A DNA stretch of 64,000 bases. It comes from a virus. Taxonomy: Duplodnaviria > Caudoviricetes. Position 1 is the stretch's first letter. Each line of letters begins with the position of its first letter. Below are positions 11,708 through 14,816 of this stretch, piece by piece. The notes under the pieces were generated by a model, which worked only from the letters and a program-made list of their open reading frames with translations, made no database searches and was not told the origin of the DNA. The stretch lies in the IMG/VR virus record IMGVR_UViG_2740891816_000001, positions 1,621 to 65,620 of that record. One strand, given 5' to 3'. Both the position numbers and the translations under genes were made by a program.

Positions 11708-11797
11708 TATTTGTGCCGCCGCATAATGGCAAGGAGGAATTGAAATGCCATTTCGGGACGTGTAAATAATTCGCGCAGGTGCTTTGCAAGGGGCATG

Positions 11798-11820
11798 AAA
11801 AAGCCCGCTCTGGGCGGGCT
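11798..11820 (-). terminator. Terminator closing the cI cargo operon
   Basis: AGCCCGC-CCAGA-GCGGGCT-T5 on the minus strand. Confidence 0.75.
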
Positions 11821-11837
11821 CTGGCGACCTTGAGGTG

Positions 11838-12419
11838 TCAGTCTGTAATGGGGGCGTACTTGCCGCTGACCGAGTCCCTGTAGACGATCTCACTAAATAG
11901 GCGCGGACCATCTCGCAGGGCGGCCAGTGCCCGTTTCGCTTCATCCTTGGTCTCGTAGGGGCCGGCACCTACAGCAAGGCCGATCATCGACACAACAGGG
12001 AGTCCTGCCATCGCTATGGCGTCCATGGTGCGTTCCTGTTCTTCCTTGTCGTGGCAGGCGGTAAACGCTACCCAGCCTTGCTTCAGGCGGGGCGACTTAA
12101 CAGGCTCAACATCGGCACCGCAGTGCTTGCACTTGATGGCAGCATTCTTGATTGTCTCGGCGCAGTAAGGGCAGGCGCGATCATCTGATAGGGGCGGAGC
12201 AGGGGTGCTTTTTTCTGCTGACTTCTCCGTGTTTGCCGACGATGCCCACACTAAGGCGACCACCCAGCCCAGAAACGTCCAGCCTAGGAACAGATTCACC
12301 AGAAAGATGGAGGTTCCATTGACGTGCTTGCGGTAGGAGGCAATAAACGTTGGAAAAAAATAGATGACGAAGCTGATCGCCAAGAGCAGGAATGCAGCTG
12401 CTGGGTTTCCATTATCCAT
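11838..12419 (-). CDS. Superinfection immunity (T4 Imm-like) membrane domain + zinc ribbon + SPOR-like C-terminus
   Basis: YFFPT.IA..RKH.N...IFLVNLFLGWTFLGWVVALVWA; CPYCAETIK..A.KCKHCG; VGAGPY...EA. Confidence 0.8.
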   Translation of the reverse strand: MDNGNPAAAFLLLAISFVIYFFPTFIASYRKHVNGTSIFLVNLFLGWTFLGWVVALVWASSANTEKSAEKSTPAPPLSDDRACPYCAETIKNAAIKCKHCGADVEPVKSPRLKQGWVAFTACHDKEEQERTMDAIAMAGLPVVSMIGLAVGAGPYETKDEAKRALAALRDGPRLFSEIVYRDSVSGKYAPITD

Positions 12420-12540
12420 ATCAAAAACCTAATCCATTGAGCAGATCAGGCACTTTACCATTCGTGGCGTACAGCCACCATTGGTGGAGCAGGGAAGGGC
12501 AGATACAAGAAGCCCGGCCCGGCGCGGGGCCGGGCTGGCG

Positions 12541-13290
12541 TCAGTGAACAGCGGAACTATAATGCGCCTGGAAATCGCTGAACAATATCGTTGGGGAGAG
12601 TCCGCCGAGAACATTGATTTCATCCTCGGCTTTTTGTTTTTTATCCCGGTCATCAACGATGAACAATACGTCAACTGGCTCTTCGGATTTATTGATGATC
12701 ACGGCCTTCCTAAGCCGAGCATTGATTGACTGTTGCACCGGAGCGACAGCATCAACATATGTGTCTCCCCACAAGAAATCGAAGGTGACGTCAATCTTAC
12801 CGACCCGGAGAGCTGCATTCCTAAGCAGCTTCCGTTCCGGGTCTTTAGCCCGAAGCAGCATCTCAACCTCTTCAGTCAATGAGAAGTCGGCATCTCCCTC
12901 GGAGAACCTGTCTTCCTCCCAGGTAGCGATTGCCGCCATAAGCCGGAGAATCTTCGCTCCCCAAATATCGAGATCGCCCTCAGGGAAAACGCTTTCAAAA
13001 GCTCCCGCACTGGTCAGCACAAAACCGTGACGGACGCCGAGATTCTCAAGGCCTTTCCAGTTTCTCTTGTCGCCAAGAGCGTATCCAAGCGAGCGAAGCG
13101 CGAAGATCGTTATCCCGTCATCGGTAAACTCGATATGGTTTCCGCGCTTGATCAAGTAGAAATCGAGGGGTTTGCCTCCTGGCAATGTTATAGGCGTGCT
13201 GATGTAAGTAGCTGGACCGCTACCTACATTAACGGTTTGGCAATGCCACCCCGATTTTGAGAAGAAATCTCCGCATCCAATGCTGCACAT
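12541..13290 (-). CDS. DUF1828-like N-terminus with restriction-endonuclease-like (DUF1829-like) C-terminus
   Basis: ISTPITL...FTDDG..IF.L; TFDF...VDAV...LFIVDD; family assignment by eye. Confidence 0.65.
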   Translation of the reverse strand: MCSIGCGDFFSKSGWHCQTVNVGSGPATYISTPITLPGGKPLDFYLIKRGNHIEFTDDGITIFALRSLGYALGDKRNWKGLENLGVRHGFVLTSAGAFESVFPEGDLDIWGAKILRLMAAIATWEEDRFSEGDADFSLTEEVEMLLRAKDPERKLLRNAALRVGKIDVTFDFLWGDTYVDAVAPVQQSINARLRKAVIINKSEEPVDVLFIVDDRDKKQKAEDEINVLGGLSPTILFSDFQAHYSSAVH

Positions 13291-13294
13291 ACCC

Positions 13295-13783
13295 TCACCC
13301 AAATAGATCGTCATCGAAAGGAGTCGATATTGAACGACCACTGTTGCTCATGATTCTAGCGTGTCGCACAAATCGCTCAACCCACCTTCGTTCGGTGGCG
13401 CCACTGATCGACGATCGGACCTTTTTCGTCACCTGAGCCAAGCGCTCATCACCAAGATGAAGATGAGGTCCGAACATGTCCATTCCTTTTTCTCTATGGG
13501 ATCGCTCATGCTCTGGCCAGACCTCAAGCATGAAGACGCGGCGCTTTTCCTTGCCCTCCCGGTACATGAGCCCATAACTAACGCGCTCGCCCATTCTTCC
13601 AGGCTGGAATTCGCCTTTGAAGTACAGATGCGGAATGGTTACGCGACGATCATCCAGCAGCATGCTGGTAGCTTCAAGCCATCCGCTGTGAGAGGGTTTT
13701 TCTGACCACTCCACATCTTCAGATAGAAACTTTATCCGGCGGCACCACTGGCGACATTCGTCTAGCCAGGTGTCTTTGTGCAT
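13295..13783 (-). CDS. DUF6978-like protein with His motif (SH....GPHLH)
   Basis: AAGGAG RBS, 4 bp from the next gene; family assignment by eye. Confidence 0.6.
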   Translation of the reverse strand: MHKDTWLDECRQWCRRIKFLSEDVEWSEKPSHSGWLEATSMLLDDRRVTIPHLYFKGEFQPGRMGERVSYGLMYREGKEKRRVFMLEVWPEHERSHREKGMDMFGPHLHLGDERLAQVTKKVRSSISGATERRWVERFVRHARIMSNSGRSISTPFDDDLFG

Positions 13784-13841
13784 TGCTGCTCCTTGAAATT
13801 GTTGGCTTACTCGGGCTTGCCCCGCACAATCCTTCCCGCTC

Positions 13842-14084
13842 TCACCTCATCCGAACGCCATAGAAGTGGTTCAGCGCTATCAGCTCAAACGCAGCCACGA
13901 AAACGCAGAGCACAACGAAGCCAGGGCTGAAGACCCGCTTGCGGTTTGAACCCCAGCCAAGCCCGGCCGCGTCGGAGTAGCCGGGGATCATCATAAGCAC
14001 CGCCAGCCAAGCAATGACCCCGACCTTGCTCCAGAAGCTCTGCTCTCGCCATGAGGTCGACGGCTTTCCAAGGGCGGAGGGCAT
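13842..14084 (-). CDS. Small two-TM membrane protein translationally coupled to cI
   Basis: TGATG overlap with the cI stop; two hydrophobic segments. Confidence 0.65.
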   Translation of the reverse strand: MPSALGKPSTSWREQSFWSKVGVIAWLAVLMMIPGYSDAAGLGWGSNRKRVFSPGFVVLCVFVAAFELIALNHFYGVRMR

Positions 14085-14743
14085 CAGTAAAACTTCTGCA
14101 GTGCCTGCACGACGACCCCAACGATCCGACAGTTCTCGTCGACCGCTTCGATTGGGTAGCTTGGGTTCAGCGGCTTCAGGAACAGCCGGCCGCCGTCGCT
14201 CACGAGCTTCTTGAATGTCGCTTCGTTGCTGTCCCGCAGCTTGGCCACGACCAGCTTACCTGGCGCAACCTCGGCTTCGGTATCGACTAGGATCAGGGTG
14301 CCCTCGGTGACACTCTGGCCTGCAGGCGCCGTCATCGAGTCGCCTTTCACCTTTAGCCAAAACGCTGTGCCCTTGGAGTCGTACTCCGAAAACTCATAGC
14401 TGTCCGAGAATCCGGCTGGGTAGGGCTCAACAGCCTCCGCCCAGGCGCCGGCGGCTACCCAGCTGATTACTGGATAGCGGAATGATTTTGTGGGTTGGGC
14501 GGCGATGGAGATGTTTGACTCGGCAGCGCTCACACCTGTCATTGGCCCGGTATTTTCGGAGAGCCAAATAGCGTTCACACCACACACATGGGCGATCTTC
14601 GGTAGGTGAGCGCTTTGAAGGTTCTTTCCGGTCTCCAGCTGGGAGATTACCGGTTGCTCAACACCCACTTTTAAGGCGAGCGCCTTCTGCGTCAGCTTGG
14701 CGTGGTTGCGTGCGGTTTTGATTCGTTCGGCGAGTGTGCTCAT
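14084..14743 (-). CDS. cI: CI repressor (HTH + S24 autopeptidase)
   Basis: HTH TQKALA.KVGVEQPVISQLE; VAAG cleavage site; GDSM Ser and TFKKL Lys. Confidence 0.95.
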   Translation of the reverse strand: MSTLAERIKTARNHAKLTQKALALKVGVEQPVISQLETGKNLQSAHLPKIAHVCGVNAIWLSENTGPMTGVSAAESNISIAAQPTKSFRYPVISWVAAGAWAEAVEPYPAGFSDSYEFSEYDSKGTAFWLKVKGDSMTAPAGQSVTEGTLILVDTEAEVAPGKLVVAKLRDSNEATFKKLVSDGGRLFLKPLNPSYPIEAVDENCRIVGVVVQALQKFY

Positions 14744-14816
14744 CAGCTGAAATTTATAAGTTCCCTTATCGGCTTGCAAATAAGTTTCCTTCTACTTAGG
14801 ATATAAGCAGGCTTAT
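14744..14816. promoter_or_regulatory. oR switch: operators at 14756-14769, 14780-14793 (imperfect), 14803-14816; divergent pR and pRM
   Basis: ATAAG-N4-CTTAT palindromes at 23-24 bp spacing; TTGCAA-17-TAGGAT rightward, TTGCAA-17-TAAATT leftward. Confidence 0.8.

What the first reader, a model, noticed from the sequence alone, without database searches (positions are those of the whole stretch)
12541..13783. Two-gene DUF6978-like + DUF1828/REase-like cassette in the rexAB slot: candidate anti-phage system
Seen: two lower-GC genes 4 bp apart, codirectional with cI, with no obvious terminator from cI until 11798-11820. Gene 1 has SH....GPHLH His motifs; gene 2 has ISTP...TDDG and an acidic FDF..VD..IVDD nuclease-like C-terminus. 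Known: the slot downstream of cI holds lambda rexAB and is a hotspot for lysogen-expressed defence genes. Inference: a sensor/enzyme plus nuclease-fold effector defence system. I do not recognise it as a named system.
Basis: partly seen in the sequence, partly recalled or inferred. Interest (0 to 1): 0.78.

Follow-up and report, generated by a model that had tools for sequence, protein, structure and literature searches.

The report
Repressor-linked two-gene defence candidate (PDC-M24-like)
Just downstream of this Pseudomonas prophage's repressor gene sit two tightly coupled, horizontally acquired genes that are distant relatives of an untested catalogued anti-phage candidate (PADLOC PDC-M24); they occupy a slot that in sister phages holds other defence genes, so they probably protect the lysogen, but nobody has shown this.

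Summary
The two genes are real: g1 is 13295-13783 (162 aa) and g2 is 12541-13290 (249 aa), both on the minus strand. They lie 4 nt apart, run the same way as cI, have low GC and are under purifying selection.

PADLOC, Pfam and NCBIfam do not name the pair, but profile-profile comparison does:
- g1 is a remote DUF6978 relative (hhalign 95%).
- g2 is a full-length DUF1828-DUF1829 relative (96%).
- DUF6978 followed by DUF1828/1829 is PADLOC's candidate PDC-M24, one of 145 untested 'guilt-by-embedding' candidates.

The g2 model has a restriction-endonuclease-like C-terminal domain. g1 has no recognisable fold and carries a conserved His cluster.

The g1-then-g2 order held in every locus examined: Pseudomonas, Burkholderia and Helicobacter phages, plus integrase or defence islands. 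The pair often sits directly behind non-orthologous repressors and usually ends with a terminator.

In 67 phages with the same cI family the slot varies from 96 to 4254 bp. It carries RmrA, a Septu/PARIS-like ATPase, PDC-S42 and a second-lineage PDC-M24 pair.

Verdict: a plausible lysogen-expressed defence cassette and a divergent branch of a known, untested candidate. The mechanism is unknown. This scan reached the same reading earlier on other DNA (e1-1963008).

The parts
14084..14779 (-). cI-type repressor (HTH_3 + Peptidase_S24). First gene of the presumed leftward immunity operon.
   Evidence: Pfam Peptidase_S24 1e-26, HTH_3 1e-9. 80 IMG/VR phages carry the same family at 69-100% identity.
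13842..14084 (-). orf80, a small two-helix membrane protein (phrog_29612). Its ATG overlaps the cI stop (TGATG). It belongs to the backbone, not the cassette.
   Evidence: PHROG 1e-40. Overlap seen. KD19 maximum 2.32. Present behind cI in many relatives.
13789..13794 (-). AAGGAG ribosome-binding site, 5 nt before the g1 ATG.
   Evidence: Sequence read directly.
13295..13783 (-). g1: 162 aa, soluble, basic (pI 9.0). Remote DUF6978 / PDC-M24A relative (phrog_2017). Conserved His cluster H96, G105-P106-H107-x-H109-x-x-D112. Fold unrecognised.
   Evidence: phrog_2017 7e-37. No Pfam, PADLOC or NCBIfam hit. Alignments A1 and A3. hhalign to DUF6978 95.3%. AF2 pLDDT 64 with best fold match only Z 5.0. 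pI and hydropathy.
12541..13290 (-). g2: 249 aa, soluble, acidic (pI 5.1), phrog_1960. N-terminal DUF1828 domain (about 6-135) with D57 conserved across the whole superfamily. C-terminal DUF1829-type restriction-endonuclease-like domain (about 132-249) with E141/E143, D171, D180, R194-K195, D213-D214.
   Evidence: phrog_1960 1e-61. Pfam DUF1828 5.6e-5. PADLOC PDC-M24B 5.8e-5, N-terminal part only. AF2 pLDDT 87. VIA and Foldseek matches. hhalign to DUF1828-1829 96.4% over 217 columns. Conservation map.
12501..12536 (-). Intrinsic-terminator-like hairpin (10-pair stem, 9 G-C, loop 6) followed by TCTTGTATCT. It closes the cI-orf80-g1-g2 unit and contains the left boundary of the swappable cassette (12518).
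   Evidence: Equivalent hairpin plus U-run after g2 in at least 15 of 23 homologous loci. Swap joint at 12518.
12519..13857 (-). The exchangeable cargo segment (1339 bp). In related prophages the same flanks enclose 1197 bp of unrelated sequence.
   Evidence: read laying joint 12518/13858 'skips 1339, 1197 letters between', seen in contigs of three runs from two studies.
11838..12419 (-). Downstream neighbour, not part of the cassette: an Imm_superinfect + zinc-ribbon membrane protein, i.e. a second exclusion-type moron.
   Evidence: Pfam Imm_superinfect 1.3e-15. It moves independently of g1-g2 in relatives.

Best explanation
g1-g2 is a horizontally acquired accessory cassette carried in the variable slot behind the prophage repressor. 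It is most likely expressed in the lysogen from the cI promoter and ends at its own terminator. It is a divergent branch of the two-gene superfamily DUF6978 followed by DUF1828-DUF1829, which PADLOC lists as phage-defence candidate PDC-M24.

Most likely function (inferred, not shown): protection of the lysogen against other phages.

Proposed mechanism (inferred):
- The acidic g2 protein and the basic g1 protein form a complex.
- g2's N-terminal DUF1828 domain, with its universally conserved TP..DG..Y..(T/S)D-G motif, or g1's His-cluster site, senses an infection cue.
- g2's restriction-endonuclease-like DUF1829 domain then binds or cuts DNA. This either destroys the invader or aborts the infection.

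Shown here: gene reality and purifying selection, strict gene pairing and order, remote homology to PDC-M24, the fold of g2, the terminator, and the hotspot nature of the slot.

Inferred only: transcription from pRM, complex formation, nuclease activity, and the anti-phage phenotype.
For: 1. Pairing. g1 lies immediately upstream of g2 in every locus examined:
- three annotated phages (P. aeruginosa P7869, Burkholderia phi644-2 gp48/gp47, a Helicobacter pametensis prophage);
- 7 of 7 species genomes;
- 14 of 14 IMG/VR contigs where the upstream DNA exists;
- 2 further genomes in a sample of 400.
No fused form appeared among 103 representative clusters.

2. Homology to PDC-M24.
- A3 against DUF6978: hhalign 95.3%, E 2e-8. 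GPHxHxGD aligns with cHxHxxTE.
- A2 against DUF1828-1829: 96.4%, E 1e-9, full length.
- DUF6978 genes score 1e-52 to 1e-71 on PDC-M24A, and their downstream partners score about 1e-104 to 1e-108 on PDC-M24B.
- All 10 DUF6978 loci examined are followed by a DUF1828 gene.
- Locus L120 bridges both clades.
- PDC-M24 was assigned by embedding in BREX, DISARM and type I RM systems.

3. Context.
- Co-directional cI-type repressors of several non-orthologous kinds lie upstream in at least 11 of 15 viral contigs.
- Elsewhere the pair sits beside integrases, a TacA/GNAT toxin-antitoxin pair, a DNA methylase, and DUF4238 + ThsA_Macro genes.

4. Hotspot.
- In 67 phages with the same cI family, the cI-to-Imm/DUF1654 distance ranges from 96 to 4254 bp, with 125 cargo clusters.
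- The cargo includes RmrA (4e-134), a PtuA/AriA/GajA-like ATPase, PDC-S42 (3e-98) and an independent PDC-M24 pair (local HMMs).
- A precise cassette swap occurs at 12518/13858.

5. g2 fold. The C-terminal domain is restriction-endonuclease-like (Z 9.2, 9.0, 8.3, 8.0 and others). Foldseek gives probabilities of 0.9-1.0 to the same set.

6. Foreign origin and selection. Low GC; synonymous changes far exceed non-synonymous ones.

7. A DUF1829 domain occurs in the experimentally validated system DS-6/HipAD.
Against: - No experiment exists for this pair or for PDC-M24, which is one of '145 untested' candidates. No paper in the library names PDC-M24, and DUF1828 and DUF6978 appear only in unrelated papers.
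- PADLOC's own models do not call this pair.
- The canonical (D/E)xK lysine is missing from strand 3 (D180-A-V). K195 sits on the following helix. D180 and K195 are not conserved in canonical DUF1829, so catalysis is uncertain.
- In HipAD the DUF1829 protein is thought to be a DNA-binding partner or antitoxin, not the effector.
- g1 has no recognisable fold (pLDDT 64, best Z 5.0), so its role is a guess.
- Expression evidence is weak. Contigs 99-100% identical to g1 and g2 occur in one peat metatranscriptome library, but DNA carry-over is not excluded, and no contig bridges cI to g1.
- Guilt by association in a prophage moron slot also fits non-defence morons.
Confidence: 0.55

Rival explanations
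1. Same defence role, opposite wiring. g1 (the His-cluster protein) is the toxic or enzymatic effector. g2 is its DNA-binding regulator or antitoxin, and its endonuclease-like fold is non-catalytic, as proposed for the DUF1829 protein of HipAD.
For: - The most strongly conserved residues of g1 across the whole superfamily are G105, H107 and H96, which looks like an active or metal site.
- The canonical DUF1829 clade lacks the strand-3 acid and the lysine.
- In DS-6/HipAD the DUF3037-DUF1829 protein is predicted to bind the kinase toxin and DNA.
- The two proteins carry opposite charge: pI 9.0 against 5.1.
Against: - g1 resembles no known toxin or enzyme fold.
- In the window's clade g2 keeps E141/E143, D171, D180, K195 and D213/D214, a plausible metal-dependent nuclease site.
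- The gene order (small protein first) fits either wiring.
Confidence: 0.2
2. A toxin-antitoxin or addiction module whose selected role is to stabilise the prophage or island, with no meaningful anti-phage activity.
For: - Two small, translationally coupled genes of opposite charge.
- Always together.
- Carried on prophages and integrase islands, once beside a TacA/GNAT toxin-antitoxin pair.
Against: - Neither protein matches any known toxin or antitoxin family in Pfam, NCBIfam or PADLOC.
- g1 has no DNA-binding antitoxin domain.
- The canonical relatives were picked up because they sit inside BREX, DISARM and type I RM loci.
- The slot's other cargo is defence-type.
- Addiction and abortive-infection roles are not mutually exclusive.
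Confidence: 0.12
3. A phage life-cycle accessory. Examples would be a nuclease and partner used in the phage's own recombination or replication, or a modulator of the lysis-lysogeny decision, placed beside cI for regulation.
For: - Position in the immunity region, co-directional with cI.
- Endonuclease-like fold.
Against: - The pair is absent from all 80 closest cI-family relatives, which carry unrelated cargo or almost none (a 96-bp slot), so it is dispensable for this phage type.
- It pairs with non-orthologous repressors and occurs outside prophages.
- Low GC marks it as foreign.
Confidence: 0.08
4. A selfish homing-type nuclease cassette that spreads by cutting empty slots in related prophages.
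For: - Endonuclease-like fold with weaker matches to homing endonucleases (I-Bth0305I Z 7.0; phage homing endonucleases at E 6e-4 to 3e-2).
- Patchy distribution and a precise cassette replacement between fixed flanks.
Against: - Obligate conservation of a second gene, g1.
- The same slot exchanges many unrelated cargos that have no nuclease, so the swap is more simply explained by recombination in the conserved flanks.
- The pair has its own terminator and sits in many different genomic contexts.
Confidence: 0.05

Closest known systems
PADLOC phage defence candidate PDC-M24 (A = DUF6978, B = DUF1828-DUF1829; Payne et al., bioRxiv 10.1101/2024.01.29.577857)
   Same: - Two adjacent co-directional genes in the same order and of the same sizes (about 150-170 aa, then about 250-280 aa).
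- Both proteins are remote homologues over nearly full length (hhalign 95.3% and 96.4%).
- The His cluster in A and the TP..DG..(T/S)D-G and DF/DD motifs in B are shared.
- A bridging lineage exists (L120).
   Different: - PADLOC's models do not detect g1 at all and detect only residues 28-79 of g2. Pfam DUF6978 and DUF1829 models also miss them.
- The window's clade has an extra invariant D180 and R194-K195, giving a more nuclease-like site.
- Its typical home is the operon behind a prophage repressor rather than inside RM or BREX loci.
- PDC-M24 itself is an untested prediction.
Lambda rexA-rexB (own knowledge: exclusion genes co-transcribed with cI from pRM)
   Same: - Two accessory genes immediately downstream of, and co-directional with, the repressor gene of a temperate phage.
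- Presumed to be expressed in the lysogen.
- The slot is a hotspot for exclusion and defence genes.
   Different: - No sequence or family relation: no Rex family appeared in the Pfam or PHROG hits.
- RexB is a multi-pass membrane channel, whereas g1 and g2 are soluble.
- A small membrane ORF separates cI from the pair.
- Co-transcription is not shown here.
DS-6 / HipAD (DefensePredictor, PMC13092281): HipA-like kinase plus a DUF3037-DUF1829 protein
   Same: It contains a DUF1829 domain and is an experimentally validated two-gene anti-phage system. The DUF1829 protein is predicted to bind its partner and DNA.
   Different: The partner is a HipA kinase, not DUF6978. The N-terminal domain is DUF3037, not DUF1828. 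There is no kinase in the window's cassette.
PD-(D/E)xK (restriction-endonuclease-like) nucleases, e.g. AF1548 (1y88), BstEII, Bax1, PspGI, Cdn1/Card1
   Same: The fold of g2 residues about 132-249: VIA Z 9.2, 9.0, 8.3, 8.0, 7.9 and 7.3, with rmsd 2.8-4.3 A over 98-141 residues. Acidic residues sit on helix 1, strand 2 and strand 3.
   Different: There is no sequence-level match. The strand-3 lysine is absent and may be supplied from the next helix (K195). The domain is fused to a DUF1828 domain not seen in those enzymes.

Membership tests
PADLOC PDC-M24 | Two adjacent co-directional genes, A then B | tested here: met
   g1 then g2 with a 4-nt gap. Same order in all homologous loci.
PADLOC PDC-M24 | Gene A matches a PDC-M24A model / Pfam DUF6978 | tested here: not met
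   No PADLOC or Pfam hit for g1 at E up to 1 or 0.1. Only 1 of 69 family members touches DUF6978, at E 0.008. Homology is visible only profile-to-profile (95.3%, E 2e-8).
PADLOC PDC-M24 | Gene B matches a PDC-M24B model / Pfam DUF1828 + DUF1829 | tested here: inconclusive
   PDC-M24B E 5.8e-5 over residues 28-79 only. Pfam DUF1828 scores 23.8 bits against a cut-off of 22, and DUF1829 is not detected. The Burkholderia and Helicobacter homologues do pass DUF1829. hhalign gives 96.4% over 217 columns.
PADLOC PDC-M24 | Anti-phage activity | not testable with these tools
   PDCs are described as untested. No paper in the library names PDC-M24.
PD-(D/E)xK nuclease superfamily | Alpha-beta-beta-beta-alpha-beta core fold | tested here: met
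   AF2 model pLDDT 87. Four matches at Z 8 or more, and most of the top 25 matches are PD-(D/E)xK proteins covering residues 132-249. Foldseek gives probabilities of 0.9-1.0.
PD-(D/E)xK nuclease superfamily | Catalytic D ... (D/E)xK constellation | tested here: inconclusive
   E141/E143 on helix 1, D171 on strand 2 and D180 on strand 3 are present. The strand-3 lysine is replaced (D-A-V). K195 on the next helix is invariant in this clade but not across the superfamily.
Lambda RexAB-type exclusion operon | Location downstream of cI in the same orientation | tested here: met
   The same arrangement occurs in P7869, the Helicobacter prophage and at least 11 of 15 viral contigs.
Lambda RexAB-type exclusion operon | Homology to RexA/RexB | tested here: not met
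   No Rex family among the Pfam or PHROG hits for g1 or g2. Neither protein has a membrane segment.
Lambda RexAB-type exclusion operon | Co-transcription with cI in the lysogen | tested here: inconclusive
   No sigma-70-like promoter was found between orf80 and g1, and a terminator lies only after g2. RNA-library contigs cover cI and, separately, g1 and g2, but none bridges them.
HipAD / DS-6 | HipA-family kinase partner and DUF3037 domain | tested here: not met
   No kinase or DUF3037 hit in g1 or g2. Only the DUF1829-type domain is shared.

The most novel reading that the evidence does not exclude
The DUF6978/DUF1828-1829 superfamily, including this repressor-linked branch, is a true anti-phage system with a mechanism not yet described. 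A small His-cluster metalloprotein would work with a sensor-nuclease whose universally conserved DUF1828 motif (TP..DG..(T/S)D-G) recognises a phage cue. Prophages would deploy it from the cI operon, so that immunity and defence are expressed together.
Probability: 0.3. Interest if true: 0.7.

Novelty: new variant of a known kind. Interest (0 to 1): 0.5.

Why it matters
If the cassette protects lysogens, that would give the first function to three domains of unknown function: DUF6978, DUF1828 and DUF1829. It would also validate a PADLOC candidate and show that current defence finders miss a whole branch of it. A further gain would be a Pseudomonas-phage counterpart of the lambda rexAB slot, exchangeable between fixed flanks, that could be mined for further systems. 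The conserved residues listed here give direct mutational targets. If it does not protect, the strict pairing and purifying selection still call for an explanation.

Tried and rejected
Searches that found nothing useful:
- Direct family searches gave no name for g1 (Pfam, NCBIfam, PADLOC).
- Profile searches against PDB sequences found nothing for either family.
- The g1 model (pLDDT 64) matched nothing in Foldseek (best E 0.24). VIA-wide gave only Z 5.0 to p32/Mam33-like proteins and Z 4.5 to TipC2, which I treat as noise.

Ideas considered and left open or dropped:
- I considered reading g1's G..HxH..D as a cupin motif or a His-Me finger. No fold evidence supports either, so neither is claimed.
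- The N-terminal domain of g2 resembles YbjN / type III secretion chaperone folds only at Z 6-7.3. That is within the range of a common arrangement, so it is not used as evidence.

Other negative or partial results:
- The DUF6978 model found nothing in five genomes that carry g1 homologues.
- Raw RNA reads of run X21 placed only one read on the stretch, which says nothing about expression.
- None of the 80 closest cI-family phages carries this g1-g2 pair, so the slot analysis speaks to the slot, not to the pair.
- No g1-g2 fusion protein was seen among 103 representative clusters.
- Locus L017 from genome G044 (unpublished) was not analysed and supports no claim. The tally of 9 of 401 genomes with DUF6978 includes it; without it the tally is 8 of 400.
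Full report
**What is there**

The window is an IMG/VR provirus of 65.6 kb with Pseudomonas-type relatives. On the minus strand, in order, lie:
- cI (14084-14779; HTH_3 + Peptidase_S24);
- an 80-aa two-helix membrane ORF whose ATG overlaps the cI stop (13842-14084; phrog_29612);
- a 58-nt spacer ending in AAGGAG;
- g1 (13295-13783, 162 aa);
- a 4-nt gap;
- g2 (12541-13290, 249 aa);
- 5 nt later, a 10-pair G+C-rich hairpin followed by TCTTGT (12536-12501).

Its statement that no terminator occurs before 11798 is not. The cassette has 51.3% GC against 57.6% for the window, which puts it in the lowest 2% of windows of that size. Its GC3 is 55% against 69-76% for cI and orf80. Against two 97-98% identical relatives, synonymous codon changes outnumber non-synonymous ones 56/4 and 66/8 in g2 and 42/6 and 48/8 in g1. 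Both are therefore real, selected, foreign genes. Neither has a membrane segment. g1 is basic (pI 9.0) and g2 is acidic (pI 5.1).

**What the proteins are**

Direct searches give little:
- g1 matches only phrog_2017.
- g2 matches phrog_1960, Pfam DUF1828 just above its cut-off, and a weak partial hit to PADLOC PDC-M24B.

A sensitive profile search found only about 100 clusters of g1 relatives, all 45-254 aa long and none fused to g2. Across them G105 and H107 are invariant and H96 nearly so, within ...SH...G....GPHxHxGD.

Pfam DUF6978 genes were found in 9 of 401 class-level genomes (one of the nine is unpublished and was not used). In all 10 loci examined, each is followed at once by a DUF1828 gene, some also with DUF1829. 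The first gene of each pair scores 1e-52 to 1e-71 on PDC-M24A, and the second about 1e-104 to 1e-108 on PDC-M24B.

Profile-profile comparison ties the window's pair to that system:
- g1 family against DUF6978: probability 95.3%, E 2e-8, 133 columns, with the His clusters aligned.
- g2 family against DUF1828-1829: 96.4%, E 1e-9, 217 columns.
- One lineage (L120) scores on both sets of profiles.
- The ESM Atlas neighbours of g1 also partly carry DUF6978.

PDC-M24 is entry CAS_00098 in the supplement of Payne et al. 2024. It is one of 145 candidates inferred from genes embedded in BREX, DISARM and type I RM loci, and the authors explicitly call these untested. No paper in the library names PDC-M24, and DUF1828 and DUF6978 appear only in unrelated papers.

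The only experimental link is that a DUF1829 domain occurs in DS-6B of the validated DS-6/HipAD system. There it accompanies DUF3037 and a HipA-like kinase, and it is predicted to bind its partner and DNA.

**Structure**

The g2 model is confident (pLDDT 87). Residues about 132-249 match restriction-endonuclease-like proteins:
- AF1548, Z 9.2;
- BstEII, Z 9.0;
- Bax1, Z 8.3;
- PspGI, Z 8.0;
- Cdn1, Z 7.9;
- Card1, Z 7.3;
- further restriction enzymes.

Foldseek gives the same set at probabilities of 0.9-1.0. The viral library gives DUF1828 proteins at E 4.5e-15, and nucleases more weakly. The N-terminal domain resembles YbjN / type III secretion chaperone folds only at Z 6-7.3, which I regard as inconclusive.

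Conservation across the whole DUF1828-1829 superfamily is strongest in the N-terminal domain: C6, C17, TP, DG, Y45, D57 (present in all 25 sequences) and G59. In the C-terminal domain an acid on helix 1 (E141), D171-F172 on strand 2, D213/D214 and an acid at 224 are general. D180 on strand 3 and R194-K195 on the next helix are confined to the window's clade and its Burkholderia, Helicobacter and L119 relatives. A metal-dependent nuclease site is therefore plausible in this clade, but it is non-canonical because strand 3 has no lysine.

The g1 model is poor (pLDDT 64) and matches no known fold. No solved structure exists for either family.

**Context**

The order g1 then g2 held in every locus I could examine:
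- phage P7869, directly behind its cI;
- Burkholderia phi644-2 gp48/gp47;
- a Helicobacter pametensis prophage, directly behind an HTH/S24 repressor;
- seven species genomes;
- 14 of 14 viral contigs with upstream DNA present;
- two more genomes.

In at least 11 of 15 viral contigs a co-directional repressor lies upstream, and these repressors are of several non-orthologous types. Outside prophages the pair sits next to integrases, AlpA/DUF4224 genes, a TacA/GNAT toxin-antitoxin pair with an IS605 TnpB and a DNA methylase, or DUF4238 plus a ThsA-Macro protein. A hairpin plus U-run terminator follows g2 in at least 15 of 23 loci. The pair therefore travels as a self-terminated unit.

**The slot**

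Eighty IMG/VR phages share the window's cI family at 69-100% identity. In the 67 that have both anchors, the distance from cI to the next conserved gene (Imm or DUF1654) ranges from 96 to 4254 bp. The interval holds 125 clusters of cargo ORFs. Of ten cargo proteins scanned with PADLOC:
- one is RmrA (4e-134);
- one is a PtuA/AriA/GajA-like ATPase;
- one is PDC-S42 (3e-98);
- two form an independent, more canonical DUF6978 + DUF1828 pair (L061; local profiles 2e-33 and 4e-55).

None of the 80 carries the window's own pair.

Contigs from two transcriptome runs of one organism and from one peat metatranscriptome join the cI/orf80 flank (from 13858) to the hairpin (12518) through 1197 unrelated letters. 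This is a clean replacement of the 1339-bp cassette. The same peat library also holds short contigs 99-100% identical to g1 and g2. Since DNA carry-over cannot be excluded and no contig bridges cI to g1, this is only a hint of expression.

**Interpretation**

The best reading (confidence about 0.55) is a lysogen-expressed defence or exclusion cassette of the PDC-M24 superfamily. Which protein senses and which acts is open. I favour g2 as a sensor-nuclease with g1 as a metal-binding partner. The reversed wiring, with g1 as effector and g2 as DNA-binding regulator as proposed for HipAD's DUF1829 protein, has about 0.2. A pure addiction module, a phage life-cycle accessory and a homing cassette are less likely, for the reasons given under each rival.

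**Novelty**

The kind is already catalogued as a candidate, and this scan reached the same reading on a P. aeruginosa phage earlier (e1-1963008; I saw that note after my own). What is new here:
- This branch escapes PADLOC and Pfam models.
- It has a more nuclease-like site.
- It sits in a demonstrably exchangeable defence slot behind cI.
- The superfamily entered that slot at least twice.

**Limits**

Noticed in passing
window 12501-12536 (-): A strong hairpin (10 pairs, 9 G-C) with a weak U tract lies directly after the g2 stop. A second hairpin at 12427-12451 runs into the start of the Imm gene. The Imm gene therefore probably needs read-through or its own promoter.
   Followed up: partly
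window 11789-14084, compared with L038-L117: The interval between cI/orf80 and Imm/DUF1654 is a hypervariable cargo slot: 96-4254 bp in 67 related phages, with 125 ORF clusters. It includes RmrA, a Septu/PARIS/Gabija-like ABC ATPase, PDC-S42, Dam-like and DUF4411/ImmA-like genes (judged by eye) and an IS21 element.
   Followed up: partly
L061:6699-7971: A phage with the same cI family carries a different, more canonical DUF6978 + DUF1828 pair in the same slot. The superfamily therefore entered this slot at least twice.
   Followed up: yes
window 13842-14084 (-): orf80 is a small two-helix membrane protein whose start overlaps the cI stop (TGATG). It is conserved behind cI in roughly half of 80 relatives. 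Its function is unknown, and it may itself be an exclusion factor.
   Followed up: no
window 12518/13858; runs X6, X7, X3: Contigs from RNA libraries show the same flanks enclosing 1197 bp of different cargo. The sequence of that cargo could not be read with the tools at hand.
   Followed up: partly
L119 and L121 (genome G305): The g1 homologue appears split into two pieces about 1.4 kb apart, with a TAG inside one match, while the g2 homologue is intact. This may be an insertion or decay of gene A.
   Followed up: no
L120:1486-2747: This pair scores on both the window-type and the canonical PDC-M24-type profiles. It is a bridging lineage that would help build a unified model.
   Followed up: partly
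L009:6890-8913: In a Rhodanobacter genome the pair is followed directly by a DUF4238 protein and a ThsA-Macro-domain protein, which looks like a small defence island.
   Followed up: no
protein P0144 (297 aa): A metagenomic protein combines MarR-type HTH Pfam domains with the C-terminal half of a g2 homologue (62% identity over 53% of g2). It could be a fusion or an assembly chimera.
   Followed up: no
L053:6527-7363 and L115:5266-6039: Cargo ORFs in the same slot look, by eye, like a DUF3037 protein and a HipA-like kinase. They may be HipAD-type cargo.
   Followed up: no
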